This document shows, in pieces, positions 1,323 to 51,392 of a stretch of DNA of 64,000 nt (within the stretch, counting starts at the first letter, position 1; every line of letters starts with the position of its first letter). The stretch spans positions 205,192 to 269,191 of the forward strand of contig JAQBRF010000004.1 in the NCBI GenBank assembly GCA_028286645.1, in the 5' to 3' direction. The notes under the pieces were generated by a model. That model saw only the letters and a list, made by a program, of their open reading frames with translations, made no database searches and was not told where the DNA came from. A program made the translations under genes and the position numbers. This DNA is from Candidatus Nomurabacteria bacterium. GTDB taxonomy: Bacteria > Patescibacteriota > Minisyncoccia > Phycocordibacterales > UBA5272.

Positions 1323-1431
1323 GAGAGTCTAAATACTCTATTGCTGTGTCATGGGAAATATCTTGTTGATACTTTTCTTTGAAGTATCTAACAATCCTTT
1401 CAATTAAGGTTGTGGGGTATTGAAATTCCAC
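1231..1431 (-). CDS. small hypothetical protein upstream of rep, overlapping it
   Basis: 66-aa ORF on the same strand, overlapping the Rep ORF 5' end by about 90 nt. Could be a separate small gene or a result of Rep start mis-assignment. Confidence 0.25.
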   Translation of the reverse strand: MEFQYPTTLIERIVRYFKEKYQQDISHDTAIEYLDSLADLHGSFIEFLQTDDNKKEELPNSLREGV

Positions 1432-1561
1432 CTAATTAGTAATTAGGTACAGAAAGATTTGTTATGCAAAAGAAATAACCACTTTAATGGTTATTTCTTT
1501 ATTTTGGACACATTTATTTGAGTATGTATTAGTAATCCCTGCTCATTAGGGATTTATTATT

Positions 1562-1765
1562 ATGGTTACCAGAGCCTTTGATGTATTTTTTTATATATTG
1601 TTGCGGAGTGTTATGTATTTCGGCTTTCCGCTTTTTACTGGATTTATATTATTTAGAGCTTATTCGTGTCTCTACATCAAAGGGCTTTTTGTACTATCTC
1701 TAGTAGTACACTCATTTTTCCATGGTGTCAATTACCAAAAAACGATGGTAGAGCTCTCTAAATAA
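1562..1765 (+). CDS. small hydrophobic hypothetical protein
   Basis: 67-aa ORF, mostly hydrophobic. Confidence 0.2.
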   Translation: MVTRAFDVFFYILLRSVMYFGFPLFTGFILFRAYSCLYIKGLFVLSLVVHSFFHGVNYQKTMVELSK

Positions 1766-2441: not shown

Positions 2442-3062
2442 ATGACAGCTGAAGCAATAATTGTTCAACAAATAGTTGACATAAACAACTTTCTAAAGTT
2501 ACTTGTTTCAGAGTCTTATCAAAGTTGGTGGATAAATCACGGACTAGAATTTTTTGGAATACTAGTTACAGTATTTATAAGCATAAGATTACATTTTATG
2601 TCAAAAAGGCTTTCAGCTAAAGATAAGTTCGAACATGAAAAAGAAATAATGAAAGAAATTTCTAAAATACCTCTCTATCAAAGCATTGTTTTATCAGATG
2701 TAAAAAAATATACACCATTTCGTACTGACTATTCCAATCAGACTTATTATAAACAAGGTGCGGAATTATATACATGTATCCCAGAATTTGGTGTTCAGGT
2801 TATATTAATGCCCAGAAATAATGATGAAATCCCTGTAGGCTTAATACCTTTTGATTGGATAGAGATAATTCGTGAACATGATAGTGAAGATAATAAACCA
2901 ATAATTGTTTGTAAATTTAAAGGGGTTAGATGGCATAAAAATTTTAAATCACCTTTTAAAGAAATAAATTATCTCTTTAAGAACAATGATTACCAAGAAG
3001 GCCATGACCCGAAGTTTTTAATGTACACGACGGTTCGAAACTCTACGGGGACTAATAATTGA
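2442..3062 (+). CDS. hypothetical membrane-anchored protein
   Basis: 206-aa ORF with one predicted TM helix (FFGILVTVFISIRLHF). Confidence 0.4.
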   Translation: MTAEAIIVQQIVDINNFLKLLVSESYQSWWINHGLEFFGILVTVFISIRLHFMSKRLSAKDKFEHEKEIMKEISKIPLYQSIVLSDVKKYTPFRTDYSNQTYYKQGAELYTCIPEFGVQVILMPRNNDEIPVGLIPFDWIEIIREHDSEDNKPIIVCKFKGVRWHKNFKSPFKEINYLFKNNDYQEGHDPKFLMYTTVRNSTGTNN

Positions 3063-3158
3063 AATTGACAAAAATAGTGCCTTACCCTCATTAGGTTAAT
3101 CTAGAGATTATTAACTATTTCTAGTCAGATATCATTCTATAATGCTAGGCGGAATAGC

Positions 3159-3186
3159 TTGACATATTGCTAAAGTGTGCTATACT
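3159..3186 (+). promoter_or_regulatory. consensus sigma70 promoter with extended -10
   Basis: TTGACA(3159-3164)-N16-tgcTATACT(3181-3186). Confidence 0.55.
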
Positions 3187-3237
3187 CAGGTCAGTAACTG
3201 AATTGGCACATTGTTGTATTCCACCAGGAGAGTTGAA

Positions 3238-3543
3238 ATGAAAATCAAAGACAAGATGGCGAAAGCACTCTTCGATCGCGGTCTTTTCGAAGAACAAGCT
3301 GAAGCAGTGCTGAAGCAGTACGTCGAAAGCGATCTCGGCAAAGAGATGGCAAACCGCATGGAGGACGACGAGTCGGACTACCCTCCAACCATGATGACGA
3401 TCGTGGGGATGGGCGTGAAGCAGACGGCACTCGAGTGGATCGATGCGAACTGTCCGAAACACTGGGCACGTCCGCTATTCATGGACGCACCTGCGGACTT
3501 CCAGCAAGCCTTGAAGGGAGCCGAAACTCCATCCAACAAGTAA
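3238..3543 (+). CDS. hypothetical small protein in a GC-rich insert
   Basis: RBS aggagag then ATG at 3238 (MKIKDKMAKALF...). GC-rich codons. Own promoter and terminator. The ORF track starts at an upstream TTG at 3211. Confidence 0.55.
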   Translation: MKIKDKMAKALFDRGLFEEQAEAVLKQYVESDLGKEMANRMEDDESDYPPTMMTIVGMGVKQTALEWIDANCPKHWARPLFMDAPADFQQALKGAETPSNK

Positions 3544-3548
3544 TCAAC

Positions 3549-3592
3549 CCCGCTCGACAGACACCGCGTCTGCTCGAGCGGTTTCTTTTTAT
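3549..3592 (+). terminator. intrinsic terminator
   Basis: cgctcgacagac...gtctgctcgagcg hairpin followed by tttcttttt. Confidence 0.6.
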
Positions 3593-3661
3593 ATAAAAGT
3601 ATGAATATTTATTCTGTGACGTAATAATTCCGTTCGGATATCGTCCCACAATGCCAGCTAG

Positions 3662-3690
3662 TTGACAGCTATACAGTTATATGTTATAAC
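3662..3690 (+). promoter_or_regulatory. consensus sigma70 promoter
   Basis: TTGACA(3662-3667)-N17-TATAAC(3685-3690), then RBS gggaggtg. Confidence 0.55.
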
Positions 3691-3739
3691 GCCACTTAAG
3701 ATGGCATTTTCGCCATATTAACCTGATGGGAGGTGTAGC

Positions 3740-4159
3740 ATGCACCGTTTACTGATTGTTGTGATTATGGGTGCTCTTATGGGTTGCGGCGACAAGCTGA
3801 CACCCACCGAAGAGCAGGTGAAGAAAGTGGAGATCTGGGAAAAGGAACTAAGGCAAGCCCCAGCCTACTCCCTGATCGAATTCACCGTCGATGTACCCAT
3901 TCCCGCGCACGGAGGTACCACACGCTTCGCGCTCCTCTGCACGCAGATCCGTGGCGACAAAGAGCTCGTGTACGCGCTCGTAAGTCATCACACTTACTGC
4001 GGAAACGCATCCCGCGTGAGTATCAGGGAAACGGCGGAGAAGATGAAGGAACTCACTCTTCCCCAGGAGCCAAACTACAATATAAGGCTTCCGATGGTGA
4101 TCAAAGACGCAATCGGACTGGAGGCGTGGCTGAAAGGTCATTCCGAAGCCTACAAGTAG
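3740..4159 (+). CDS. putative lipoprotein
   Basis: Signal peptide with lipobox (LMGC). GC-rich. Terminator follows. Confidence 0.55.
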   Translation: MHRLLIVVIMGALMGCGDKLTPTEEQVKKVEIWEKELRQAPAYSLIEFTVDVPIPAHGGTTRFALLCTQIRGDKELVYALVSHHTYCGNASRVSIRETAEKMKELTLPQEPNYNIRLPMVIKDAIGLEAWLKGHSEAYK

Positions 4160-9718: not shown

Positions 9719-10120
9719 ATGAAAATCATTCATAAAATCGCAGCTGTTGTTATACAAGATAATAAGTTTCTTATGGTTAGAAAGAAAGGTAAGGACATAT
9801 GGACGAGTCTAGGCGGTCATCCTGAGGAAGGAGAAACAGAAGAACAAGCTCTTATCCGAGAAACAAATGAAGAGATGGGATGTTCGGCTAAAGTGATTAA
9901 AAAAATAGGAGACTTTGAAGCTCCCGCAGTTTTTGATGATGCGATGGTGAGGCTATCTACTTACCTAGTAGAGTTAGAGGGAGATATAATTTTTGAAGAT
10001 CCAGAATTAGAAGAATATAAGTTTTTAAGCAAAGAAGAAGTAAATAATGTGAAGTTGCCAGATTCAATAACCAAGCAAATTATTCCCTACTGCATAAAAA
10101 ATGGTTTGCTAATGTGGTAA
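9719..10120 (+). CDS. NUDIX hydrolase
   Basis: Nudix box GGHPEEGETEEQALIRETNEEMG. Confidence 0.75.
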   Translation: MKIIHKIAAVVIQDNKFLMVRKKGKDIWTSLGGHPEEGETEEQALIRETNEEMGCSAKVIKKIGDFEAPAVFDDAMVRLSTYLVELEGDIIFEDPELEEYKFLSKEEVNNVKLPDSITKQIIPYCIKNGLLMW

Positions 10121-10185
10121 TGTTATTCCTTAAATTGAGATATTTAGATAAAAAATGCGACGCTTTCGCGCCGCAACTCCATCAT

Positions 10186-11022
10186 TTACTTTCTTGCAGT
10201 GAGATATCCGAGCTCTGGATTATTTATGTAATCTTTCCAGAATTCTTCTCCGAAAAGGCTTAGGCCCTCTTCGGAAACGATTGGCCGGTGCCATTGTACC
10301 TCCGGGAACCCTACCTCCCTCAGCTGTTTTTCGATTGTGTCTGCTGTATAGTAAACAGCAGACAATGTGCAGATTTCCTCCTCTTCGTTGTACAGAGTAA
10401 TGCGTAAAACACCCTCATCCACCGACCCGCCCGGCACATACTTCATTGCCCCGAACCTTTTGAGATTCGTGTCGTTAGGAAGGTCGACAAGCAGTATAAC
10501 TTTTCCACCCTCCGACAAGCTGGTATATAGTTGGCGGAAAAGCTGGCGAAGTATGGGAGTGGTACGCGCGTAATTTGTCACAAACGGAATGACGATGACA
10601 TCTGCCGACGGAAGATTGTCGACAAAGACATCCTTCAATATGTACTCAATCCGTGGGTGGCGTGAGACTTTGGCAGCAAGCGCAAGCTGAGCTTGTGAGT
10701 TGTCGATTCCGTACACACGTCTTGCATTAAGTCCGGCAAGTGGAACCGTAAAGAACCCATCCCCACACCCGACATCAAGGACAACTCGATCTTCGCAATC
10801 GCCGACTAGCTTGAGCACGGTCGGCAACATAGAGTATTGCTTGTCAGGTTTGATATTTGACTTCTTGTAGGTCACTGCTAGCAAGTCGTAGTTGTTCAAT
10901 CCACGACTTGCACCGAAGAAGAAGCCATCAAGCCATGCTACGAATCCACCATTTTTCGCAAGCGCCCACCTCCAGAACAGATAGGCGATGGCATTCCGAC
11001 GTCCTGGGATACAAATAATCAC
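10186..11022 (-). CDS. class I SAM-dependent methyltransferase (GC-rich insert)
   Basis: Motif I VLDVGCGDGFFTVPLA, then DNS.., Rossmann-fold MTase. Locally about 50% GC. Confidence 0.6.
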   Translation of the reverse strand: MIICIPGRRNAIAYLFWRWALAKNGGFVAWLDGFFFGASRGLNNYDLLAVTYKKSNIKPDKQYSMLPTVLKLVGDCEDRVVLDVGCGDGFFTVPLAGLNARRVYGIDNSQAQLALAAKVSRHPRIEYILKDVFVDNLPSADVIVIPFVTNYARTTPILRQLFRQLYTSLSEGGKVILLVDLPNDTNLKRFGAMKYVPGGSVDEGVLRITLYNEEEEICTLSAVYYTADTIEKQLREVGFPEVQWHRPIVSEEGLSLFGEEFWKDYINNPELGYLTARK

Positions 11023-17788: not shown

Positions 17789-18253
17789 ATGTTTAATTTA
17801 TTTAGAGAAATCCGTGAGTTAAGAGATGAGGGAAAATTGCATACTAAATTGATAAGCAGAACCAGGATGCTTTTTATAATTTCAGCAATATTATTATTTG
17901 TTGTCTTATTTAATATTTTCTTTAGAGATATTACCTTTCCTATTCTTTTATTGATTATGGGCCTCGCTATCATAGGCTTTTTCTTGGGATTATATGTATT
18001 TAGCCAAATGAATGTAGTTAATTGGAATGAAGAGGAGGAAATTTTAAAGTCTGGGAAAATGGATAAAGCGGGATGGTTTGCACTTGCGCTATACATAGTA
18101 TTCGAAATAAGTCTAAGAACTTTTTTAAATGCAAATTTCCCTACTTTTGTCATTCCACTGCTTTTATCAGGTATTTTCGGTACCATTTTAGGGCGAGCAA
18201 TTGGAACACTTGTAGAAATTCACAGAGTGTATGAATTTAATTATACAAAGTAA
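17789..18253 (+). CDS. membrane protein
   Basis: 154 aa, four hydrophobic helices. Confidence 0.4.
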   Translation: MFNLFREIRELRDEGKLHTKLISRTRMLFIISAILLFVVLFNIFFRDITFPILLLIMGLAIIGFFLGLYVFSQMNVVNWNEEEEILKSGKMDKAGWFALALYIVFEISLRTFLNANFPTFVIPLLLSGIFGTILGRAIGTLVEIHRVYEFNYTK

Positions 18254-18375
18254 GTATTATTACAGTCATTTCTTTATAATGTAGTTTGATATTTGAACAG
18301 TCGTCTGTTTCGATATCGCATTTGATATCGTGCAGATTTTCTACAATGAGTTTTAGAAAAGAAGAGGCAAACTTT

Positions 18376-18909
18376 ATGAATGTAGTTACAAACAGGCCGA
18401 AATTCCTTACGAAAGCGATAGCTCGCGAAGCCGTCGTGCGCGTTCTCGGTAGCTTGACAGCATTCCCTGAGATCGACCCCATGAGACTTCATGTCGTCAT
18501 TATGGTGCCGCAGATGCTCGTACCAAGCGGAGTCCGCTGGCGTGGTGATCAGCCCGCTCCGTACAGCATTCATCCGTACGTGCTCTACGAACACTCCGAA
18601 GGCAAAGGAGGGTGGGATGTGCATCTCGATGAAATTGCCAAAGAAAAGGCCCTGGCCCTCTGGATCGGCTTCGCTGACGGAAGCCTCTCTCCCGTCCCAC
18701 ACCTCCTCATGGAGGGAGCCACCAAGTGGGTCGGCGGAGTGAAGCGGGATTGGCTTGTTGTTGCCTGCTCGGGATCCAAGTCGCATGCGGACCGCCTGAT
18801 TTCTGAAACAATCGCTTCGGTCCTCATATTCCTCACGCAGCATGACTGGGAAGAAAGCGAAGAGAAGAAAAACCGGGAGATCGACTTCATCGGCGAAAAA
18901 CTGTCGTAA
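18376..18909 (+). CDS. hypothetical protein (GC-rich insert)
   Basis: RBS gaagagg 8 nt before the ATG at 18376 (MNVVTNRPKF...). Terminator directly after the stop on the + strand. The antisense ORF is a shadow ORF. Confidence 0.5.
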   Translation: MNVVTNRPKFLTKAIAREAVVRVLGSLTAFPEIDPMRLHVVIMVPQMLVPSGVRWRGDQPAPYSIHPYVLYEHSEGKGGWDVHLDEIAKEKALALWIGFADGSLSPVPHLLMEGATKWVGGVKRDWLVVACSGSKSHADRLISETIASVLIFLTQHDWEESEEKKNREIDFIGEKLS

Positions 18910-18924
18910 TAAGCCCATCAACAA

Positions 18925-18955
18925 CCCCGCCAAAGAAGCGGGGAGTTTTTATTTC
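18925..18955 (+). terminator. intrinsic terminator
   Basis: ccccgc-caaagaa-gcgggg followed by agtttttattt. Confidence 0.6.
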
Positions 18956-18960
18956 AAAAA

Positions 18961-19440
18961 TTATATTTTACTGAGTTCATCTAATATTGCTTTATTATCT
19001 GCTTTTAGCCGGCGCACTCCAGGAGATTGAGTATTCTCTGCCATATTTATGGCGTCATGATAGGCGTCCGTGGCTTGCTCTAGAAAATTAGCAGCAAACA
19101 AAATCTTGGCTTGCTCTACAAGGAAAACGAAAGTGCTCGTTTCAATGGCTTCCGTAGTGTTTTCCACTTGCATGTGCTCTTCTTCTCTTAAAATGATGTA
19201 ATCAACATAAGGTTGTACGTCTTCTTTATGGGTAAGCAATTTAAGTACCACTTCCTGTTGTCTTCTGGTTAAAAGCCCTTCAATAGTTTCTATAGCTTTG
19301 TGGCCAATGGGAGTGGTGGGAAGGATGGGAGAAATAGCCATTGCTCCTAAAGTTCCTAAAAAATTTCTTCTTCCCTGATTTACTTTCTCAACAGGTGGAA
19401 CTTCTGGGCCATTTTGTTTCTCAGGGTTTCTTTGTTCCAT
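18961..19440 (-). CDS. hypothetical protein with twin-arginine signal
   Basis: N-terminal RRNFLGTLGAMAISPIL is a Tat-type signal. Confidence 0.45.
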   Translation of the reverse strand: MEQRNPEKQNGPEVPPVEKVNQGRRNFLGTLGAMAISPILPTTPIGHKAIETIEGLLTRRQQEVVLKLLTHKEDVQPYVDYIILREEEHMQVENTTEAIETSTFVFLVEQAKILFAANFLEQATDAYHDAINMAENTQSPGVRRLKADNKAILDELSKI

Positions 19441-19533
19441 TTGTTTATTATACAGATTTTATAAATAAAATGCCGGCTCTTGTTTTACAGATAGGCCGAC
19501 TATGTATTTTTCATATTATTGATCTCCAGTGAA

Positions 19534-19734
19534 TTATTTAAAAAGAAATTCATCTTTTTCTACTTTAACTTTTAACTTTCTTCTATCAGCTTCTTGTCTC
19601 ATAATTTTCCACACAGGAAGAGTTCTTGGCTTGCCATCGGGCTGGACTAGGTAAGCTTCGATTTCTTCGTCTTCCCATTCGTCGACATTTACTGTTCCGT
19701 CAGATTTGATCAAACGTTCCCAATTTATCGCCAT
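19534..19734 (-). CDS. small acidic hypothetical protein
   Basis: RBS aaagggggc before Met (MAINWERL...); 66 aa. Confidence 0.35.
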   Translation of the reverse strand: MAINWERLIKSDGTVNVDEWEDEEIEAYLVQPDGKPRTLPVWKIMRQEADRRKLKVKVEKDEFLFK

Positions 19735-19880
19735 GATAAGCCCCCTTTCTTTAGGCAATAGTTCCAAGTTAGTGTAACTGACAATTAGAATAATGCCTGT
19801 TGACAACTTCGTAAATAATAGAGATCATATATATTGAGGTACCCAATTTGGGTGCCATAGCCAAGAGAAAGGAAAAGAGG

Positions 19881-20186
19881 ATGTCCAAAAGAGTTCCTAT
19901 CCATGAAGGGGTGGAAATCCCAGTTCCACTCCCTCTCGTTGAAAGAATGGCCGAGTATCTGGAAAAATACCCCGCGCGGCAAAATATTGTGCGGAGAATC
20001 CATGACACTCTTCGAAGGGAAGGTAAGCGATACTTCGCAATTGTGTTGAAGACCGATCTGGAAACCATCCGTGCCCTAAAAGGGAACGGCGGGTGGCAGG
20101 GATTGATGCGTGAACTTGTGGGCATCAAAAAGTGGCTGGTGCCCAAAAAGAAAAGAAAAGCCCGGAGAAAAGCAAAAAAGAAGTAG
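19881..20186 (+). CDS. small basic hypothetical protein, possibly RHH-like
   Basis: RBS aaaggaaaagagg before MSKRVPIH; lysine/arginine-rich C-terminal tail; GC-rich. Confidence 0.4.
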   Translation: MSKRVPIHEGVEIPVPLPLVERMAEYLEKYPARQNIVRRIHDTLRREGKRYFAIVLKTDLETIRALKGNGGWQGLMRELVGIKKWLVPKKKRKARRKAKKK

Positions 20187-20202
20187 ATTAAGATGAGAAG
20201 CT

Positions 20203-20282
20203 GGCCGCGCCAACCGCGGTCAGCTATTTTATTTAAATATTAGACAAATTTAAACCGCGAGTTGCCCCGCGGCTTTCCTGTG
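20203..20282. terminator. pair of GC-rich hairpins (bidirectional terminators)
   Basis: ccgcg-ccaa-ccgcgg followed by agctattttattt; second hairpin ccgcgagttgccccgcgg serves the minus-strand gene. Confidence 0.5.
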
Positions 20283-20291
20283 TGAGTTTCG

Positions 20292-20885
20292 TCAGAAGAA
20301 TGACCTGAAGTACGGCGCCCACCCTCCGCTTGCGAGCATGGCCTTCCATACGATATCTATTCCTTTAAAGGCCGGTACGGCCATAAGGAGCGTAAGCCAC
20401 GTCGCCGGAACTGACCATGCCACCACGCTGAAAGGAAGTCCGATGATACGGAAGCAGCTAACCAGCATGACTCGATTCTGCGGAAGAAGCCAATTTTCTC
20501 CAATGGTGGGGGCTACTGCAGTGCTGGGCGGCGAGAAGAAACCACCGAGCATGATCATTCCCATGCCTTTCTCCCCACTGAGCACTTGCAGGACAAACGC
20601 GCTATGATACTTTGCGAGCATCATCCCCATCGCCATGACGGGAATAACGACCACCAGTGTCAGGAATATCCCCGCACTTGTTTGGATGCTCATCGGCATG
20701 ATCTTCTTCAGAGCCGGCATACCACCCGCGTGATACAAGGCGCCGAGTAGTATTGCCCCAACGAGAAGAATGGGAGCCGCTTGTACTCCCGGGACCAGAA
20801 GAAACTTTTTCCACGTCATCGGCACTTCCGTGTAGATTCCGTAGAAGGTGAGCGCGAGCCCAATAGCAATGAATGTTTTACCCAT
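20292..20885 (-). CDS. polytopic membrane protein (GC-rich insert)
   Basis: RBS aaaggggggaaga before MGKTFIAIGL; 5-6 TM helices. Confidence 0.45.
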   Translation of the reverse strand: MGKTFIAIGLALTFYGIYTEVPMTWKKFLLVPGVQAAPILLVGAILLGALYHAGGMPALKKIMPMSIQTSAGIFLTLVVVIPVMAMGMMLAKYHSAFVLQVLSGEKGMGMIMLGGFFSPPSTAVAPTIGENWLLPQNRVMLVSCFRIIGLPFSVVAWSVPATWLTLLMAVPAFKGIDIVWKAMLASGGWAPYFRSFF

Positions 20886-21082
20886 GTCTTCCCCCCTTTT
20901 CGAAGAGCAACAGTCCAATATTGGATAATCTTATTATACCTTAAATATAACTATCTGTCAATTAGATATTAATGTTTTTCCATTGCCAAATATGAAGAAA
21001 TAGTGTATTTTTTGTCTTAAGGATCAAATTGCTCATTTCATTTACCCAATACGCAGTAATTAAGTGCGCGAGGAATAAGCCG

Positions 21083-22027
21083 ATGGATAATTTCGAGGTA
21101 AAGCCAAAAGTCATCTTTATCGATGATCGACCTGATGTTGTCGCAGGGCGAGCCAAGATCTTGGAAGGAATGGGTTATCTGGTACAGATCTACTCAACCT
21201 CCGGGCAAGCTCTGGAAGCTGTCCATGACCTAAATGATCCCACCATCGTCTTTGTTGACATGGATATGGGGCCGGGAGAGGCAACAGGAGTTCAGATCGT
21301 AGCTTACTGGGATGAGAATCATCGCGCGCCTCTAACGATTTGGGCATATACCGCTGATTCCACTTCTAAGACCGAAACCCGCTTCCGAAGAGCGGGGGCC
21401 GACGGGGTTGTAAGTAAGACGTGCGATTTCGATACCTTCATGGGAGTAATGTATTCCGCAATACGATTTCTTCGAAAGGAGCAGCGTGCGACCAGAGACA
21501 AACTAACTCAAATCCCAAACCGGGATGAGGGTTTTATCCGAGGAGAGAAGCTGTTAGACGTGGCTCAGCGGGAGGAAAAGCCCCTGATCGGTATCATGTT
21601 CGACCTCGATGACTTCAAAAGCTATAACACCAAGTACACTCACCCAAGAGCGGATCGCATCCTCGTCCATGTTGTTCGGATGGCAAAAGCTCATCTTCGT
21701 AAAGCAGACGAGTTCTTCCGTTACGGAGGTGAAGAGTTTGTGGTCCTGTGCCACGATGCGCCGGATATCGACTTTGCTCTGAACCTTGAAGAGGCCTTAA
21801 ACACTGCATTACTCACAACCCTCACAGATTTGGGAGGGGGAGACCACGATACGTGTTGTGTGACCTTCGGCATTTGTCTCATATCAAAAGATGTGGAAGG
21901 CAGTGAGTACACAATGTCATATCTAGTGGACCAAACCGCCGTTAGCCTTCGGGAGCGTAAGAAGACCAAGTACGACAGGAAGGACGCATTACTCAAAAAA
22001 ATTAAAGAAGCGGCGAGGGAATTATGA
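21083..22027 (+). CDS. response regulator receiver + GGDEF diguanylate cyclase
   Basis: N-terminal REC (VIFIDDRPDV....VFVDMDMGPGEATG) and a GGDEF domain with intact GGEEF plus RxxD-like region; RBS aggaataag. Confidence 0.7.
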   Translation: MDNFEVKPKVIFIDDRPDVVAGRAKILEGMGYLVQIYSTSGQALEAVHDLNDPTIVFVDMDMGPGEATGVQIVAYWDENHRAPLTIWAYTADSTSKTETRFRRAGADGVVSKTCDFDTFMGVMYSAIRFLRKEQRATRDKLTQIPNRDEGFIRGEKLLDVAQREEKPLIGIMFDLDDFKSYNTKYTHPRADRILVHVVRMAKAHLRKADEFFRYGGEEFVVLCHDAPDIDFALNLEEALNTALLTTLTDLGGGDHDTCCVTFGICLISKDVEGSEYTMSYLVDQTAVSLRERKKTKYDRKDALLKKIKEAAREL

Positions 22028-25446: not shown

Positions 25447-25893
25447 TTAGTCTAATGAGTATGGAAGCCTCTTAGCGGGAGACATGGTAGTTTTAGGATC
25501 TTCTATCCAATCGTTATTCACATCTACGTATAATTCAAGTTCGTTGTTATCTGGATCTAACATATAAAGACTATGCGTAACATGGTGATCTGTAGCTCCG
25601 ACTACCGTAACTCCTTTTTCTAGCAATTCTTTATAGGCAGACTTCAGTTCGTCTGGGGTATTCCCTATTTTAAATCCGATATGATATAGACCTGGGGTTG
25701 GACGCGATTCTTCTTTAGGATTTCCACCCACTTCAATTAAAAGCAACTCGTGATGAGTTCTTCCGGAAGAAAATAAAGCAGTGTGTAGATCTCTATGGAT
25801 TTCTTTAAACCCTAAAATATCTTTATAAAAATCCGCAGATTTCTTCAAATTAGAAACATAAAGCACCACGTGGCCAAGTTCATGAATTTTCAT
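25447..25893 (-). CDS. VOC family protein (glyoxalase/bleomycin-resistance/dioxygenase fold)
   Basis: HVVLYVSNLKKSADFYKDILGF. Confidence 0.55.
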   Translation of the reverse strand: MKIHELGHVVLYVSNLKKSADFYKDILGFKEIHRDLHTALFSSGRTHHELLLIEVGGNPKEESRPTPGLYHIGFKIGNTPDELKSAYKELLEKGVTVVGATDHHVTHSLYMLDPDNNELELYVDVNNDWIEDPKTTMSPAKRLPYSLD

Positions 25894-25902
25894 ACTGTAA
25901 AG

Positions 25903-25945
25903 TATACCCCCACACTAATTTAAAAGAAATTAGTGTGGGGGTATA
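25903..25945. promoter_or_regulatory. 43-bp near-perfect palindrome in a divergent intergenic region
   Basis: tatacccccacactaatt-taaaagaa-attagtgtgggggtata gives an 18-bp stem. On the minus-strand mRNA it would pair the gggggt SD-like run 10 nt before the VOC ATG. Confidence 0.5.
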
Positions 25946-26056
25946 GGAAAGCCAATCCCCATATTTAAGTCATAATTTAACAATATCTTGCTATACTTTA
26001 TGTATTCAGGAGTGTCTTTCTCGTGGGAGAAATAGGATATTTCCTTATATTATTTT

Positions 26057-30133: not shown

Positions 30134-31246
30134 ATGAACTTAAAAGAAGAAGCTCAAAAGATTCTAAATTTAGCAGACATTAAAATAGGAGGAGATAGAC
30201 CATGGGATATGATCATACACGATGAGCGTGTATATGCCGATGTCTTAAGCAAGGGATCTGTTGCTCTTGGAGAAACTTATATGAACTCATGGTGGGATTC
30301 CCCTGCGCTCGACCAATTCTTTGATAAATTAATTTCAGCTAATTTGAAAGAGAAAGTTAGGCCGACTTTCAGCCATTTGATGCTTTATTTATCTGCTAAA
30401 TTTTTTAATAAGCAATCAAAGAAAAGAGCTTTCATCGTTGGAGAAAAGCATTATGATGCGGGAAATGATTTATATACTCGCATGCTTGATAAAAGACTTA
30501 CATATACTTGCGGATATTGGAAAGAAGCAAAGACTTTAGACGAAGCACAAGAAGCTAAACTTGATCTGATCTGTAAAAAAATAGGGCTAAAGTCAGGTGA
30601 TAAAGTTTTAGACATAGGCTGTGGCTGGGGAAGCTTCGCTAAGTTTGCTGCAGAAAAGTATGGCGCTCACGTCGTCGGCATTACTATTTCCAATGAACAA
30701 GCCAAGCTTGCTCGAGAGCTCGTTGTAGGACTTCCCGTAGAAATAAGAGTATGCGACTACAGAGAGATGAATGAGAAGTTCGACCATATTATCTCTATTG
30801 GAATGTTTGAGCATGTCGGATATAAAAACTTCAGGACTTATATGGAAGTGGCAAATCGCTGCTTAAAAGATGATGGGCTATTTCTGCTTCATACAATTGG
30901 AAACAACTATTCTGATCTTCATACAGATCCATGGATAGAGAAGTATATATTCCCAAATGGGCTACTCCCCTCTATTGCTCAAATAGGCAAATCAATAGAA
31001 AGATTATTTATAATGGAAGACTGGCATAATTTCGGAACTGATTATGATAAGACCCTCATGGTATGGAACGAAAACTTTGAAAAATCCTGGGATGAGATAA
31101 AGGATAAATACGATGAAAGGTTTAAAAGAATGTGGAATTATTATCTGCTAATGTGCGCAGGTTCATTCCGAGCTCGCGATATTAATCTATGGCAAATTGT
31201 ATTATCTAAAAAAGGAGTTAAGGGAGGATACAAGTCAATAAGATAG
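30134..31246 (+). CDS. cfa: cyclopropane-fatty-acyl-phospholipid synthase family methyltransferase
   Basis: VLDIGCGWGSFAKFAAEKYG, ..ISIGMFEHVG..N, CFA-synthase length and C-terminal region. Confidence 0.7.
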   Translation: MNLKEEAQKILNLADIKIGGDRPWDMIIHDERVYADVLSKGSVALGETYMNSWWDSPALDQFFDKLISANLKEKVRPTFSHLMLYLSAKFFNKQSKKRAFIVGEKHYDAGNDLYTRMLDKRLTYTCGYWKEAKTLDEAQEAKLDLICKKIGLKSGDKVLDIGCGWGSFAKFAAEKYGAHVVGITISNEQAKLARELVVGLPVEIRVCDYREMNEKFDHIISIGMFEHVGYKNFRTYMEVANRCLKDDGLFLLHTIGNNYSDLHTDPWIEKYIFPNGLLPSIAQIGKSIERLFIMEDWHNFGTDYDKTLMVWNENFEKSWDEIKDKYDERFKRMWNYYLLMCAGSFRARDINLWQIVLSKKGVKGGYKSIR

Positions 31247-31279
31247 ATTCATATTTGTATACTTCAGAAAATGATCGTA

Positions 31280-31316
31280 GAAAATAAAAAGTGAGGAACC
31301 CGGAGGTCCCTCACCA
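31280..31316 (-). terminator. intrinsic terminator of the minus-strand gene
   Basis: gtgagg-aacccggaggtc-cctcac followed on the minus strand by a T-run. Confidence 0.5.
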
Positions 31317-31336
31317 GTGCACTAGATCCGCCCTTT

Positions 31337-32071
31337 TCAGTACGCGAAGCGTAATCCGACCACTTCGATTATGCGTGTCACACGACTTATGCCGCCGTCC
31401 TTGATTTCAGACGGATCGATATATCGCACCGAAGCGACCACCGACCAATTACGGTTAACGGAGTAACCGCCAATCGCTTCTGCATTCCAGACGTTGCCAG
31501 ATGTGGAACCTAACATCGTCTGATAGTGCCCCCGGTCAAGAATCCCCGTCCATGACCAGGGTCCAGCCTTGCCGATCAACTTGATGCCGACGCGGTTCAC
31601 GGTCGCACCGTCGATCTGCCCACCCATCATGTATACGAGTTCACCCTTATAGAACGGGCAAATCTCGCCGACGGCGAACTTGGGACATTTGTCCGGGCTC
31701 AGGATGAGCACCGGATTTATGATGTCGTTCGACCCCGCCGTGCCGGTGGGAAAGCGGTCGATGAAGGTGACAGATACATCGCAGCGAACCCCGTAGAAAA
31801 CACAGAGCCATCCCACCTTCCCGTCGGTTTCGTTGCCGAAGTGCGCCGTCTCTCCGCCCACAAGCCGTTTGGAGGCCCACAGTTCTCCATAAACGCCGTT
31901 CTTTGCGAAGACGTCGACGAATCCCTGGACGACTGGCTTATTGCTTGCCATGAAGCCGTTAGGGAGCTGATAGCTCGACAGAATACTGAGGCCTCCGGTT
32001 ACGCTAGGCGATTCCGCTACCGCAAGGGTGGCGCTAAAGATCATCAGAATTGCGGCGATAAGCTTCTTCAT
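31337..32071 (-). CDS. secreted beta-rich protein, possibly outer-membrane beta-barrel-like (GC-rich insert)
   Basis: Signal peptide MKKLIAAILMIFSATLAVA; alternating-residue strands; C-terminus ...VGLRFAY. Confidence 0.4.
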   Translation of the reverse strand: MKKLIAAILMIFSATLAVAESPSVTGGLSILSSYQLPNGFMASNKPVVQGFVDVFAKNGVYGELWASKRLVGGETAHFGNETDGKVGWLCVFYGVRCDVSVTFIDRFPTGTAGSNDIINPVLILSPDKCPKFAVGEICPFYKGELVYMMGGQIDGATVNRVGIKLIGKAGPWSWTGILDRGHYQTMLGSTSGNVWNAEAIGGYSVNRNWSVVASVRYIDPSEIKDGGISRVTRIIEVVGLRFAY

Positions 32072-43738: not shown

Positions 43739-43814
43739 GGGCCCTTAGCTCAATTGGTAGAGCGCCTGTTTTGCACTCAGGAGGCAAGCGGTTCGAATCC
43801 GCTAGGGTCCACCA
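43739..43814 (+). tRNA. tRNA-Ala (anticodon TGC)
   Basis: Acceptor gggccct/agggtcc with G3:U70; D-stem gctc/gagc; anticodon loop ttTGCac; T-loop ttcgaat; CCA encoded. Confidence 0.9.
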
Positions 43815-45710: not shown

Positions 45711-45947
45711 TTAAGCCCTTAATTGGTCGTCCTCAGAGCTTTTCCTAGAAGCTTTAGTAAGTACATTTATAAGCTCCCTCCGGTCCTTTGCATCATAATC
45801 ATTTTTATCCACTACCTTTGAGAACCATCGCGATATTGTGCTTCTTGAGAATCCTTGTTTCTTTACAGCAAGATAAAGAGTGGGGAAGTCACCCAAGTTT
45901 ACGTGCTTCCTTCGTACACTATGAAATCTTTTTTGTATTGTTTTCAT
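45711..45947 (-). CDS. small HTH DNA-binding protein (excisionase/AlpA-like, possible RDF or regulator)
   Basis: LYLAVKKQGFSRSTISRWF is a helix-turn-helix; 78 aa; upstream of the recombinase. Confidence 0.4.
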   Translation of the reverse strand: MKTIQKRFHSVRRKHVNLGDFPTLYLAVKKQGFSRSTISRWFSKVVDKNDYDAKDRRELINVLTKASRKSSEDDQLRA

Positions 45948-48715: not shown

Positions 48716-49664
48716 ATTTTTTTAAGGTCTTTATCACTTCCTCTCCAACGGCTTGGATTGCGTTTATGGCCACGCTGTTCCCTAATTGCCTCATGGCTTG
48801 TACTTCAGACACTGGGAATTCAAACTCTTCAGGAAAACCCATCATTTTTTTTCCTTCCTTAGGGGTGAGTTTTCTGGTCTTGCCACTCACCAAATAAGTA
48901 TCCCAGTTTCTTCTGTCATTCAACCCAGAACCTCTCCCTCCCAAACGAAGTGTATACCCAATTTCCTTTGAACAGTTACCTCCAAAAATTTCCGACATGT
49001 TGGTTTTTAGTTCAATAGGGTCTGGAAATTTGAAAGGGATATTTTTATCGCGGAAACCCACCATATACAAACGCGGTCTGTGTTGTGGAAGGCCGAAATC
49101 GGAAGCCTTCACTATCTTCCAATAGAAAGAGTACCCGAGATCCTTTTCAATTGTTTCCTTGATTCTCGCAAAGGTTTTGCCATCATCATGCTTAAGGAGA
49201 TGTCTCACGTTTTCAATGAAAAAGGCGGCAGGTTTTTTTTCCTTAATGATTCTTGCTATGTCAAAGAAGAGAGTGCCTCGGGTATCATCAAATCCTTTCT
49301 TGTGGCCCGCTTGGCTAAACGCTTGGCAAGGAAAACCTCCCGTCAGAATATCAAAGTCTGGGATTTCTTTCTCATTTACCTTGGTTATATCGCCAGCGAA
49401 CAAATCGCTCTTGAACAACTGGGGTTCCATCTTTGAAAAGTTGTGGATGTATGTCGTTCTCGCATGCTTATCCCATTCGCTGGCAAAAACACACTTCGCT
49501 CCAAGATGGTGGAAAGCGATATGGAATCCTCCGATTCCAGCAAATAGGTCTATGAATGTATATTTCTTCCTGCTGGACTTCGACTTCATGTATTCTTTTA
49601 ATTCTACCATAGAACTACGGCATAGTTTCACTAAAAAATCATGTTTCCCTCTTGTGTTTTTCAA
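48699..49664 (-). CDS. DNA (cytosine-5)-methyltransferase
   Basis: Motif I FIDLFAGIGGF, motif IV GFPCQAFS, ENV motif (FIENVRHL), C-terminal QLGNSV. Confidence 0.85.
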   Translation of the reverse strand: MKNTRGKHDFLVKLCRSSMVELKEYMKSKSSRKKYTFIDLFAGIGGFHIAFHHLGAKCVFASEWDKHARTTYIHNFSKMEPQLFKSDLFAGDITKVNEKEIPDFDILTGGFPCQAFSQAGHKKGFDDTRGTLFFDIARIIKEKKPAAFFIENVRHLLKHDDGKTFARIKETIEKDLGYSFYWKIVKASDFGLPQHRPRLYMVGFRDKNIPFKFPDPIELKTNMSEIFGGNCSKEIGYTLRLGGRGSGLNDRRNWDTYLVSGKTRKLTPKEGKKMMGFPEEFEFPVSEVQAMRQLGNSVAINAIQAVGEEVIKTLKKYDKRK

Positions 49665-49967
49665 GAGTGTGCTTTATACTTCATAGGTAGATTGAAAACG
49701 CAATACAGAAGCTCGCTTGGTAGGGATACCAAGCATCGCCGAGCGACCGACACCACGAAGTAGCACCGAAATCCTTTAGACGGGCATTCTAGCGGGAACA
49801 ATCAAATGTTCCATGCTGGCAATCCACTAGTTATGGGAACACAGTAGCAATACTGCCGTTCCCGTGAGAGTGTCGGTCTAAGGGATTTTTCTTTTGTCAT
49901 CTAATCTTCAACCATAATTACGAGAAGCTTTCAGATTAGATTTGTGCAGCTAACACCGAATAATAAT

Positions 49968-50006
49968 TGGGTGGTAACTGGACGAATCTAGCAACAGGTT
50001 CGTCCA
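49968..50006 (+). terminator. intrinsic terminator
   Basis: ctggacgaa-tctagcaacagg-ttcgtccag followed by tttttgttt. Confidence 0.55.
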
Positions 50007-50116
50007 GTTTTTGTTTAACCGCCGTTTTCCTACATAAAAGGTGAGCGGTTCAGGGTGCAGAAGTCCTTATGCTGCTGCTGGCAGGACAACCCTCGGGGAA
50101 GATTTGAAACGACATC

Positions 50117-50317
50117 ATGTCTACTCAAAATCCCGTCTGTACATGTGCAGACATCTGCGTAGCTTACGTAACCCGAAATGGTAAACGGCGCTATGCTTCA
50201 ACATATGGTCATAAGTGCTGGCCTATTAAAGATAACCGTTCTTGCGCACTTCATAGCAAGAAAGCAAAAACCCCATCACAAGTTGTGACAGGATCTATGC
50301 TTAATCTAATCGCTTAA
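50117..50317 (+). CDS. small Cys-rich hypothetical protein (GC-rich)
   Basis: 66 aa, C-x-C-x3-C ... C ... C spacing suggests a zinc ribbon. Confidence 0.3.
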   Translation: MSTQNPVCTCADICVAYVTRNGKRRYASTYGHKCWPIKDNRSCALHSKKAKTPSQVVTGSMLNLIA

Positions 50318-50535
50318 GGAGTTTATACCTCCTGTGGCCCTAACATCCCGTAAGGGGTGTTTTGTATTCTAAGTATATCCAGTAGCAAGTCCATCGCAAA
50401 AGGATAACTACGGACCATTACTCTACACTTCTCAAGACGAAAAAGCAACTCTGGTTATGCCAGTTCTGTTTTCCTTGAAAATCCAAGAAAGATACTCCAA
50501 TTCTTTAAGCATTCGGTTTATATTTAAATTACCAG

Positions 50536-50592
50536 GGTCCACTAACAAAAACGAACTCAGGCCATAGGCCTGTTTTTGTTAGTGGACCCGTA
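50536..50592. repeat. long perfect hairpin
   Basis: gggtccactaacaaaaac-gaactc(aggcc ata ggcct)g-tttttgttagtggaccc is an 18-bp stem with a nested mini-hairpin. Confidence 0.6.
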
Positions 50593-50733
50593 AAGCACAA
50601 GAACTGCTTCTTGTGCGGATTCGAAAGCGGCAGGCATATTTCACTAGTAAGTGAAATGACGAGGAGGGGCCGGCGAGTCCGACGAACGGCGGTGAGAAGG
50701 AACTTGTCGGAGAAATTCCGCAGGGATCTACAG

Positions 50734-50761
50734 TTGACAAAATCTTTATTTATGCTAAGAT
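50734..50761 (+). promoter_or_regulatory. sigma70 promoter
   Basis: TTGACA-N16-TAAGAT upstream of the ATG at 50791. Confidence 0.5.
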
Positions 50762-50790
50762 GGGTTTGTCTTATTATTGGAGATCGGACA

Positions 50791-50958
50791 ATGATCAAAA
50801 CCATTTTCACGTTCGCCGTTGCAAACGCCCTCGGCCTGGCAATGATGATCTATTTTGACAAAAAGAAAAAGCGTCCGATGAGAAATCCAGCAATGTACAC
50901 AGTGGTGTATCTCATTGCTACCGCATTGGATGTGTCGATTGTTCACTTCGTTCTTTAA
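50791..50958 (+). CDS. small membrane protein (55 aa)
   Basis: RBS ggag 9 nt upstream; MIKTIFTFAVANALGLAMMIYF...; terminator follows. Confidence 0.4.
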   Translation: MIKTIFTFAVANALGLAMMIYFDKKKKRPMRNPAMYTVVYLIATALDVSIVHFVL

Positions 50959-50963
50959 TGCAT

Positions 50964-51008
50964 CCCGCCGCAAGCAATAGACACGCTTCGGCGGGTTTAT
51001 TGTTTTAG
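50964..51008 (+). terminator. intrinsic terminator
   Basis: cccgccg...cggcggg followed by tttattgtttt. Confidence 0.6.
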
Positions 51009-51083
51009 ATTATTAATTATGATGCCAAATCCATTAATATGAAGATCGCAATCAACACCAAGCAACCTAATCATATTTATCCC

Positions 51084-51392
51084 CTAATTAATCACTCCCG
51101 CTGAAATTTGTTTCACTTTTTTTATTAATCCATTAACATGAGCTAATTCTTCTTCCGCATTCGTCGCACCTTCCAGATCTTCTTTCATACGCCCAAGCTT
51201 TTCTAAAAATAAACCAGTTATCAGCATTTTATGCTGATATGGGGAATTTTTATCCTTCATATCTAACTCAAATCCAACTAACTTACTCTCTAATTCACTA
51301 AGATGTTGCTCATATCTATTTATAAGATCGGGCGGACCTTCATGCTCATTTCTGGCTATAAAGGGATTACCTGAATGATCTTCTAATTTCAT
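51084..51392 (-). CDS. hypothetical protein
   Basis: 102 aa, predicted helical. Confidence 0.35.
   Translation of the reverse strand: MKLEDHSGNPFIARNEHEGPPDLINRYEQHLSELESKLVGFELDMKDKNSPYQHKMLITGLFLEKLGRMKEDLEGATNAEEELAHVNGLIKKVKQISAGVIN

What the first reader, a model, noticed from the sequence alone, without database searches (positions are those of the whole stretch)
49705..49900. GC-rich multi-stem RNA-like element next to the R-M operon
The segment 49711-49900 shows a 5' hairpin (gctcg[cttggta-ggga-taccaag]catcgccgagc). A long-range closing stem gaccgacac (49745-49753) / gtgtcggtc (49870-49878) encloses a multi-branch region. Inside are a gcat...atgc stem around gggaaca-atcaaa-tgttcc, and a nested gggaac[cagta-GCAA-tactg]ccgttccc hairpin with a GNRA tetraloop. 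A U-rich tail (gggatttttcttttg) follows the closing stem. This is about 50% GC in an AT-rich context, has no ORF, and lies just upstream of the MTase gene start on the opposite strand. It could be a structured non-coding RNA or RNA-based regulatory element carried by the island. It does not resemble tmRNA, RNase P, SRP or the common riboswitches as far as I can judge by eye.
Basis: seen in the sequence. Interest (0 to 1): 0.55.

Follow-up and report, generated by a model that had tools for sequence, protein, structure and literature searches.

The report
Structured leader RNA before small gene
The flagged 200 bases are a real, strongly folded RNA element in a mobile island of a Candidatus Nomurabacteria genome; it goes with the small protein gene downstream, not with the neighbouring restriction-modification genes, and it matches no catalogued RNA family.

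Summary
Window 49705-49900 folds far better than shuffles on the + strand (-80.7 kcal/mol, z -7.7; - strand z -3.5) and ranks in the top four of 1277 sliding windows. It matches no Rfam 15 family.

It is not part of the HpaII-type R-M cassette: the closest cassettes elsewhere (80%, 75% and 71% identical R.HpaII) lack it. 84 loci of the same serine-recombinase island family also lack it.

The link is to the 66-aa ORF downstream (50117-50317). That ORF is a real gene: against its 72%-identical homologue, differences by codon position are 7/10/25. The homologue sits in an unrelated contig next to an IS1595 transposase. A promoter-like site precedes a similarly shaped RNA there. Shared features are a GNRA-capped 5' hairpin, a 23-pair long stem (5 pairs changed on both sides, 4 on one side, 1 broken), two side hairpins and a U tract.

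Best reading: a + strand leader or attenuator RNA, or possibly a separate small RNA, of a small-protein module at the attR end of a tRNA-Ala island. Only two RNA copies are known and there are no expression data.

The parts
49653..49681 (+). Promoter-like site TTGTGT-17 nt-TATACT just upstream of the RNA. It overlaps the divergent MTase upstream region.
   Evidence: Read from the sequence. It was not flagged by the consensus scan because the -35 matches only 3 of 6. The -10 block CTTTATA(C/A)TT aligns with L098, where a TTGACT promoter-like site precedes the homologous RNA.
49700..49897 (+). The structured RNA element ('RNA1'), about 200 nt. The 5' end is inferred from the promoter (about 49688). 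The 3' end is inferred from the U tract.
   Evidence: MFE -80.7 kcal/mol, z -7.7. Top 4 of 1277 windows. Homologue at L098 1387-1583, CM 19.3 bits, E about 1e-4 in that locus.
49716..49733 (+). P1: 5' hairpin CUUGGUA-GGGA-UACCAAG with a GNRA tetraloop.
   Evidence: Pair probability 0.93-0.97. L098 has a hairpin with a GAAA loop at the same place. RNAalifold keeps 4 pairs, 3 of them changed on both sides.
49744..49753 (+). Segment X (CGACCGACAC), a conserved single-stranded block. It is complementary to Z, the 3' strand of the long stem.
   Evidence: L098 has CGACCGGCAU here. X:Z has 9 of 9 pairs in both sequences, with one A-U to G-C double change and one C-G to U-G change.
49769..49790 (+). 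5' strand of the long stem (S1 49769-49781, S2 49783-49790); segment Y.
49790..49818 (+). Side arm P3: UAGC / GCUG (49790-49793 with 49815-49818) closing GGAAC / GUUCC (49795-49799 with 49808-49812).
Evidence: RNAalifold consensus of the two homologues. It has 3 pairs changed on both sides: 2 in the outer 4-bp stem and 1 in the inner helix.
49835..49863 (+). Side arm P4: GGGAAC / GUUCCC enclosing CAGUA-GCAA-UACUG (GNRA loop).
   Evidence: In L098 the arm is GGAAG-GUAA-CUUCC, so a GNRA-capped hairpin is kept.
49867..49888 (+). 3' strand of the long stem (S2 49867-49874, S1 49876-49888). It contains Z (GUGUCGGUC, 49870-49878), which can pair with either X or Y.
49885..49896 (+). U-rich tract (UUUUUCUUUUG) directly after the long stem. 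Together they look like an intrinsic terminator.
   Evidence: Sequence. L098 has UUUUUUAUUU after its stem.
49976..50009 (+). Second terminator-like hairpin (14 pairs plus UUUUUGUUU) between the RNA and the ORF.
50117..50317 (+). orf66: small basic protein gene with conserved cysteines (motif ICVxYVTRNG...YGxKCWPI). It is the conserved partner of the RNA.
   Evidence: 3 small homologues among 1.84 billion representatives, best E 1.2e-12. Codon differences by position are 7/10/25, with 19 synonymous and 12 non-synonymous changes. No Pfam, NCBIfam, PHROG or PADLOC family.
50342..50361 (+). Terminator-like hairpin after orf66 (GUAA loop).
50533..50541 (+). AGGGTCCAC, a copy of the 3' end of tRNA-Ala (43803-43811). 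Inferred attR, the right edge of the island, which places the RNA and orf66 inside the island.
   Evidence: The sequence to its right belongs to a motif found next to tRNA genes in other CPR genomes. The sequence to its left aligns weakly with the same position of the island in L024.

Best explanation
RNA1 is a structured RNA of about 200 nt, transcribed on the + strand from its own promoter. It forms the front part of a two-gene-sized module (RNA plus a roughly 60-aa protein with conserved cysteines, orf66). That module sits as cargo at the attR-proximal end of a 6.7-kb serine-recombinase island inserted in tRNA-Ala(UGC) of a Candidatus Nomurabacteria genome.

Anatomy:
- a GNRA-capped 5' hairpin (P1);
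- a conserved single-stranded block X;
- a long basal stem (strand Y pairing with strand Z) that carries a three-way junction with two side hairpins, one GNRA-capped;
- a U tract immediately after the stem.

Proposed mechanism (inferred, not shown): the long stem plus U tract is an intrinsic terminator that stops most transcripts before orf66. X is complementary to the same 3' strand (Z) as Y, so X:Z and Y:Z exclude each other. When X captures Z, alone or helped by a factor, the terminator cannot close and transcription reads on towards orf66. The RNA would then be a cis-acting attenuator that keeps the small protein off until a signal arrives.

Shown here: the fold, the strand, the absence from Rfam, independence from the R-M genes, co-occurrence with orf66 homologues in two unrelated contexts, and maintenance of both the Y:Z and X:Z helices.

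Inferred: transcription, termination, the switch, and what orf66 does. One guess is a regulator or directionality factor of the mobile element, because a third homologue sits after an ImmR/ImmA-like gene pair next to a tRNA-like remnant.
For: Fold and strand:
- + strand z -7.7 against - strand z -3.5.
- Top 4 of 1277 windows.
- G-U against A-C pairs in the long stem are 7:1 over the two homologues.

Not R-M-linked:
- The cassettes with 80%, 75% and 71% identical R.HpaII lack it.

Not part of the island backbone:
- CM R1 finds only itself in 84 recombinase-family loci and 8 R.HpaII-cassette loci, 92 sources and 1.56 Mb with the window.

Linked to orf66:
- orf66 is under purifying selection.
- Its best homologue P0241 (72% identity, E 1e-12) lies in L098, 97 nt downstream of a CM hit on the same strand (19.3 bits, E about 1e-4) that ends in a U tract and follows a promoter-like site.
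- L098 itself folds with z -4.5.

Helix conservation:
- Long stem of 23 pairs: 13 invariant, 4 changed on one side, 5 changed on both sides, 1 broken.
- Whole model 98.4% paired against 36-58% when partners are slid by 1-3 columns.
- X:Z has 9 of 9 pairs in both sequences, including an A-U to G-C change.
- RNAalifold independently returns P1, the long stem and both side arms, with 11 pairs changed on both sides.
- The most conserved sequence blocks are X, Y and Z, the three strands of the competing helices.

Island position:
- attR at 50533-50541.
Against: - Only two RNA copies are known. The alignment (A6) was made by hand and fitted to the structure, and the shuffle control is weak with two rows.
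- The L098 hit is modest (19.3 bits) and would have E of about 0.1 if judged against all 1.6 Mb searched.
- X:Z has essentially zero equilibrium probability against a 29-bp competitor. An antiterminator that pairs with the 3' strand of a terminator is kinetically unusual.
- In the window, 220 nt and a second strong terminator separate the RNA from orf66. A weak own promoter for orf66 cannot be excluded in either locus.
- Neither orf66 nor P0241 has a clear Shine-Dalgarno sequence.
- The second homologue with a retrievable context, P0243 in L099, has no such RNA in front of it.
- There are no transcript data.
Confidence: 0.45

Rival explanations
1. It is an independent, stable small RNA, terminated at its own U tract. 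It would act in trans or together with the orf66 protein. One possibility is an immunity-type RNA of a mobile element, in which repeated complementary blocks (X, Y, Z) let the processed RNA pair with nascent transcripts. Another is an RNA partner of the small basic protein.
For: - It has its own promoter-like site and a terminator-like end in both loci.
- In the window a second terminator and 220 nt lie before orf66.
- X is conserved and single-stranded in the MFE, like a seed.
- It has two GNRA loops and a three-way junction, as in folded stable RNAs.
Against: - No target was found. The only exact complement of X in the 64-kb window is Z itself, and near matches are at chance level. No complementarity of 11 nt or more to other island transcripts exists apart from low-complexity runs.
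- Same-strand adjacency to orf66 in two unrelated contexts fits a cis role at least as well.
Confidence: 0.3
2. It is a decayed or chance inverted repeat, such as a MITE-like remnant, a transposon end or a complex bidirectional terminator, with no specific RNA function. The similarity to L098 would then reflect shared descent of a mobile DNA piece.
For: - The core is a 31-nt imperfect inverted repeat.
- L098 carries an IS1595 transposase 120 nt upstream.
- There are only two copies.
- An A tract, stem and U tract make up the anatomy of a bidirectional terminator.
Against: - No other copy exists in the window or in 1.6 Mb of related loci.
- The mismatch bias of 7 G-U to 1 A-C points to selection on the + strand RNA.
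- Five double compensatory changes lie in the stem, and more lie in P1 and the side arms, which are outside the inverted repeat.
- X, also outside the repeat, is conserved and covaries with Z.
Confidence: 0.12
3. It is a regulatory RNA of the HpaII-type R-M system: an antisense or leader RNA controlling M.HpaII, transcribed divergently from, or overlapping, the M promoter.
For: It lies 40-95 nt from the M start. The predicted -10 elements of RNA1 and of M overlap back to back.
Against: - The closest M-R-Vsr cassettes (MTase 84.5% and about 64-67% identical by tblastn) have short, unrelated upstream regions and no CM hit.
- The homologue in L098 has no R-M genes nearby on its 1.9-kb contig.
Confidence: 0.04
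4. It is a DNA-level element, such as a recombination site, oriT or single-strand origin of the island, that folds as single-stranded DNA.
For: The + strand also folds well as DNA (z -4.8). It lies near the end of a mobile island.
Against: - The attR and the recombinase-side arm are 640 nt further right.
- No relaxase or Rep gene is present in the island.
- G-U pairs and a strand asymmetry favour RNA.
- It is absent from all other islands of the recombinase family.
Confidence: 0.04

Closest known systems
Terminator/antiterminator leader RNAs (transcription attenuators and riboswitch expression platforms)
   Same: A promoter is followed by a structured leader on the same strand as the downstream gene. 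A stem plus U tract forms the terminator. A conserved upstream block can pair with one terminator strand, giving two mutually exclusive helices, and both are kept in the homologue.
   Different: - The terminator is a 23-29-bp stem topped by a three-way junction rather than a short hairpin.
- The competing block pairs with the 3' strand, not the 5' strand.
- The junction nucleotides are poorly conserved between the two copies, so no ligand pocket is evident.
- No leader peptide, T-box or known protein-binding motif was found, and no Rfam family matches.
Immunity RNAs of phage P4 (CI RNA with seqA/seqB/seqC) and P1/P7 (c4 RNA), recalled from the literature and not tested here
   Same: It is a mobile-element leader region carrying repeated mutually complementary blocks. 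It is a small structured RNA that acts through premature termination or occlusion of downstream genes, and it lies upstream of a small gene.
   Different: There is no sequence or model similarity: Rfam C4 and related models give nothing. The host is a CPR bacterium, and the block order is X-Y-Z with one effector strand. The resemblance is conceptual only.
Antisense RNAs of type II R-M systems (for example in EcoRI), recalled from the literature
   Same: It is a small RNA gene adjacent to R-M genes on a mobile island.
   Different: It is not antisense to R or M, and it is not conserved with the cassette. Its only homologue is away from any R-M gene.
Orphan structured-RNA motifs of mobile elements found by comparative genomics (Rfam motifs linked to integrases, phage and transposon genes)
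   Same: It is a GC-rich, multi-stem intergenic element in an AT-rich genome. It has GNRA loops and is associated with a mobile element and with a hypothetical small gene.
   Different: It matches none of the 4227 Rfam 15 models.

Membership tests
Any Rfam 15 family | Covariance-model score at or near the family's gathering threshold | tested here: not met
   Window at gathering thresholds gives only two tRNAs. Regions 49500-50200 and 49550-51150 at E<=10 give only microRNA or rimP noise. L098 and L099 at E<=1 give nothing on the RNA.
Rho-independent transcription attenuator (leader) | Stable stem followed directly by a U tract, upstream of and co-oriented with the regulated gene | tested here: met
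   Long stem with pair probability 0.78-1.0 plus UUUUUCUUUUG. L098 has the same plus UUUUUUAUUU, 97 nt before the orf66 homologue.
Rho-independent transcription attenuator (leader) | A mutually exclusive alternative helix involving a terminator strand, conserved among homologues | tested here: inconclusive
   X:Z has 9 of 9 pairs in both sequences with one double change. But there are only two sequences, and the equilibrium probability is about 0.
Rho-independent transcription attenuator (leader) | Promoter upstream and regulated read-through into the gene | not testable with these tools
   Only promoter-like sequences are available. No transcript data.
Riboswitch | Highly conserved ligand-binding core in junctions and loops | tested here: inconclusive
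   Junction and linker nucleotides differ widely between the two copies, while the conserved blocks are helix strands X, Y and Z. Two sequences are too few to exclude a riboswitch.
Retron msr-msd RNA | Adjacent reverse-transcriptase gene | tested here: not met
   No RT is present. The six island ORFs tested hit only Resolvase/Recombinase, Vsr, RE_HpaII and DNA_methylase, or no Pfam family. L098 carries only an IS1595 transposase and the small ORF.
R-M-associated regulatory RNA | Co-occurrence with homologous R-M cassettes | tested here: not met
MITE or repeat element | Multiple dispersed copies with terminal inverted repeats | tested here: not met
   Single copy in 64 kb. None in 1.6 Mb of related loci. 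The whole genome was not available.
Backbone of the tRNA-Ala serine-recombinase island family | Presence in other islands of the family | tested here: not met
   84 recombinase loci carry no sequence or CM match.

The most novel reading that the evidence does not exclude
RNA1 and the orf66-type protein may form a previously undescribed two-part RNA-protein module of mobile elements in CPR bacteria and their neighbours. In that module a folded RNA with GNRA-mediated tertiary structure would be the working partner or sensor of a tiny nucleic-acid-binding protein with conserved cysteines. Possible roles are control of excision or transfer, or defence or anti-defence. It would then be more than an ordinary leader.
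Probability: 0.12. Interest if true: 0.7.

Novelty: new member of a known kind. Interest (0 to 1): 0.42.

Why it matters
Candidate Phyla Radiation bacteria have almost no experimentally or computationally described regulatory RNAs, and their mobile islands are barely charted. This element is an uncatalogued structured RNA with first comparative support. It is tied to an uncharacterised small-protein family that sits at the ends of integrated elements. If the terminator/anti-terminator reading is right, it gives a simple, testable example of how a CPR island gates one of its end-located genes. The case also shows that adjacency to an R-M operon can mislead. The practical value is modest until more members are found.

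Tried and rejected
- Rfam at gathering and permissive thresholds: nothing.
- blastn (distant mode) of the RNA or the gap against phage, plasmid and E. coli collections: nothing meaningful.
- Pattern scans. A stem-loop pattern gave nothing in viral contigs, and an 18-mer there gave 4 unrelated hits. Conserved-block patterns in viral contigs gave nothing.
- Recombinase route: 84 loci of the island family, no RNA1 by blastn, nhmmer or CM.
- R.HpaII route: 8 loci, no RNA1.
- Protein scans of viral contigs with orf66, the 222-aa protein and the orf66 alignment: nothing.
- A concatenated query of five small island or flank proteins in the word-indexed protein search returned nothing and wasted the last search.
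- Exact look-ups of orf66, the 102-aa protein and the NUDIX protein were not on record.
- A direct repeat of the tRNA longer than 9 nt at the island end: not found.
- Trans targets of X or of the whole RNA in the window: none.
- orf66 structure: AlphaFold pLDDT 59; Foldseek against PDB and a profile search of PDB sequences gave nothing significant.
- Retron, MITE, DNA-origin and rRNA-fragment ideas were rejected for the reasons given under the rival explanations and the membership test.

Full report
**1. The observation**

As + strand RNA, 49705-49900 has an MFE of -80.7 kcal/mol. Dinucleotide shuffles give -50.6 +/- 3.9, so z is -7.7. The reverse strand reaches only z -3.5, and + strand DNA parameters give z -4.8.

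I folded every 200-nt window of the 64-kb sequence on both strands and regressed MFE on GC. Window 49701-49900 (+) is among the four most over-folded of 1277. Two of the other three lie 600-900 nt downstream in the same gene-free gap.

It has three parts:
- AAAUCCUUUAGAC / GUCUAAGGGAUUU
- GGCAUUCU / AGAGUGUC
- GCGGGAAC / GUUCCCGU

Together these give 29 pairs, 4 of them G-U, with pair probabilities of 0.78-1.0. A U tract, UUUUUCUUUUG, follows directly.

**2. Context**

The window comes from a Candidatus Nomurabacteria (CPR/Patescibacteria) genome. The local gene order is:
- tRNA-Ala(UGC) at 43739-43814;
- a 502-aa large serine recombinase on the opposite strand, whose last 12 codons are the antisense of the tRNA;
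- two to three hypothetical genes;
- Vsr, R.HpaII and a C5 MTase;
- a 1.47-kb stretch (49610-51084) in which the public gene calls contain nothing.

Relatives of the recombinase number 1596 in the protein collection. In 15 of the 16 loci scanned for tRNA genes, 12 of them at tRNA-Ala(UGC), the gene end overlaps a tRNA in the same way. Their cargo is often other R-M or defence genes.

I place the right end of this island at 50533-50541, for three reasons:
- AGGGTCCAC there repeats the tRNA 3' end.
- The sequence to its right belongs to a motif that, in other CPR genomes, lies directly after intact tRNA genes.
- The roughly 70 nt to its left align weakly with the equivalent position of the island in L024.

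RNA1 is therefore island cargo, about 640 nt from attR.

**3. What it is not**

No Rfam 15 model matches at the gathering thresholds or at E<=10. There is no similarity to phage, plasmid or E. coli records, and no second copy in the window.

It is not part of the R-M cassette. The cassettes with the most similar R.HpaII (80%, 75% and 71% identity) and MTase (84.5% for the closest, about 64-67% for the others compared by tblastn) have short, unrelated upstream regions. They give no hit with a covariance model built from RNA1.

It is not part of the island backbone either. 84 recombinase loci are negative by blastn, nhmmer and covariance model.

**4. What it goes with**

Downstream on the same strand lies a 66-codon ORF (50117-50317) that no gene caller had reported. 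A full HMMER search of 1.84 billion representatives found three small homologues:
- P0241, 59 aa, 72% identity, E 1.2e-12;
- P0243, 55 aa;
- P0244, 55 aa.

They share the motif ICVxYVTRNG..Y..YGxKCWPI. Between orf66 and P0241, 43 aligned core codons show 19 synonymous and 12 non-synonymous differences. Changes by codon position are 7/10/25. This is a real gene under purifying selection. No Pfam, NCBIfam, PHROG or PADLOC family fits. The AlphaFold model is weak (pLDDT 59) and gives no fold match.

P0241 lies on a 1.9-kb contig (L098), after an IS1595-family transposase and a 417-nt gap. In that gap, on the same strand and ending 97 nt before the ORF, the RNA1 model scores 19.3 bits (E about 1e-4 for that locus). 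A promoter-like TTGACT site precedes it, a U tract follows it, and the region itself folds with z -4.5.

P0243 sits in a different setting (L099): behind an HTH_31 / Peptidase_M78 (ImmR/ImmA-like) pair, next to what looks like a tRNA-type T-arm and acceptor remnant (not confirmed: ARAGORN finds no tRNA there), and with no RNA1-like element. The P0244 contig could not be fetched.

**5. Comparative structure**

I aligned the two RNAs by hand, segment by segment (A6), and counted pairs.

| Helix | Pairs | Invariant | One side changed | Both sides changed | Broken |
|---|---|---|---|---|---|
| Long stem S1+S2 (Y:Z) | 23 | 13 | 4 | 5 | 1 |

With the two side hairpins, 98.4% of cells are paired, against 36-58% when partners are slid by 1-3 columns. 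Only 1 of 500 shuffles reaches the observed covariation.

RNAalifold on the same alignment independently returns P1, the long stem and both side arms, with 11 pairs changed on both sides. P1 has 3 of its 4 pairs changed on both sides. One side arm is closed by UAGC / GCUG in the window and GGGC / GCCU in L098. The other is a GNRA-capped arm.

Both topologies remain possible in both sequences, because the four strands are GGGAAC / GUUCC twice in the window and GGAAG / CUUCC twice in L098.

GNRA loops are kept: GGGA and GCAA in the window, GAAA and GUAA in L098. Within the long stem, G-U pairs outnumber A-C mismatches 7 to 1 over the two sequences, which points to selection on the + strand transcript.

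Its 5' strand X (CGACCGRCAY), the 5' strand of the long stem Y (UUWGACKGGYAYU) and their common partner Z (GAGUGYCGGUCWAAG) are the best-conserved sequence blocks of the element.

**6. Mechanism**

The most economical reading is a leader RNA. It has a promoter, a structured 5' region, and a long-stem intrinsic terminator whose 3' strand can be captured by an upstream block. The small protein gene follows. I therefore propose conditional termination that controls orf66.

Several points weaken this:
- There are only two copies, and the alignment was fitted to the model.
- X:Z is thermodynamically negligible, and pairing with the 3' strand of a terminator is an unusual design.
- The window has a second terminator and 220 nt before the ORF.
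- Neither ORF has a clear ribosome-binding site.
- One homologue of the protein lacks the RNA.

An independent small RNA, possibly working with the protein or acting like the immunity RNAs of P4 or P1, is the main rival. I found no trans target for it. A functionless inverted repeat, an R-M regulator and a DNA-level site are less likely, for the reasons listed under the rival explanations.

**7. Verdict**

The element is real and RNA-like, is on the + strand, is carried by the island and is absent from Rfam. It belongs to a small RNA-plus-small-protein module, not to the R-M system. I class it as a new member of a known kind (structured leader or small RNA of a mobile element). Interest is moderate, and its function is inferred only.

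Noticed in passing
window 50535-50700 (core 50612-50690); also L024 6090-6165 and 760-833, L021 14365-14442, L011 11573-11647 and 3513-3589, L027 11716-11784, L018 12780-12856 and 14113-14188, L015 12014-12087, L049 1906-1980, L023 2940-3023: A second structured motif, absent from Rfam. A terminator-like hairpin, often with a CUGC loop, is followed by a core GGAG..AUGUUUUGN-loop-NCAAAAC..CGAG.CGGGGUCG. In many CPR genomes it lies directly after, or once beside, tRNA genes. Over 12 copies, the 7-bp hairpin is 100% paired and all 7 pairs show changes on both sides. Function is unknown and downstream genes vary.
   Followed up: partly
window 43777-43814 and 50533-50541; loci L002-L028: The last 12 codons of the large serine recombinase (VVDPSGFEPLAS) are the antisense of the tRNA-Ala 3' half. 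Relatives share this C-terminus and overlap a tRNA in the same way, mostly tRNA-Ala(UGC). Only 9 nt of the tRNA end are repeated at the far end of the island. In the integrated state the gene end is therefore apparently supplied by the host tRNA gene.
   Followed up: partly
window 50535-50589: A perfect 18-bp inverted repeat, GGGTCCACTAACAAAAAC ... GTTTTTGTTAGTGGACCC. Its 5' arm begins with the tRNA 3' end copy and its centre is a small terminator hairpin. L018 shows the same design after an intact tRNA, with the downstream arm complementary to the acceptor 3' strand.
   Followed up: partly
window 50791-50958 (+): An uncalled 55-aa ORF with two hydrophobic segments. It has a good promoter-like site (TTGACA-16-TAAGAT, 50734-50761), a GGAG ribosome-binding site and a terminator-like hairpin after it. 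There is no family match.
   Followed up: partly
window 45711-45947 (-): The 78-aa hypothetical protein next to the recombinase has weak relatives at the equivalent position in at least 9 other islands of the family. It may be the recombination directionality factor.
   Followed up: no
window 3001-4000, 10001-11000, 18001-22000, 31001-32000: GC-rich patches (0.45-0.49) in a genome of roughly 0.35 GC. One encodes a SAM methyltransferase (10186-11022) and one a receiver-GGDEF protein (21029-22027). The others have ORFs with no Pfam match on both strands. They may be foreign DNA.
   Followed up: partly
window 1320-1620 and 25850-26050: Other strongly folding intergenic stretches. Region 1320-1620 resolves into a row of simple hairpins, probably terminators (z -3.7). 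Region 25850-26050 was not examined.
   Followed up: partly
L099 10170-10280: Just after the orf66 homologue P0243 there is a T-arm and acceptor-like remnant (GGGGTGCAATTCCCC..CGGTCCACC). This suggests that this gene also sits at the edge of an element integrated in a tRNA or tmRNA gene. ARAGORN finds no complete gene there.
   Followed up: no
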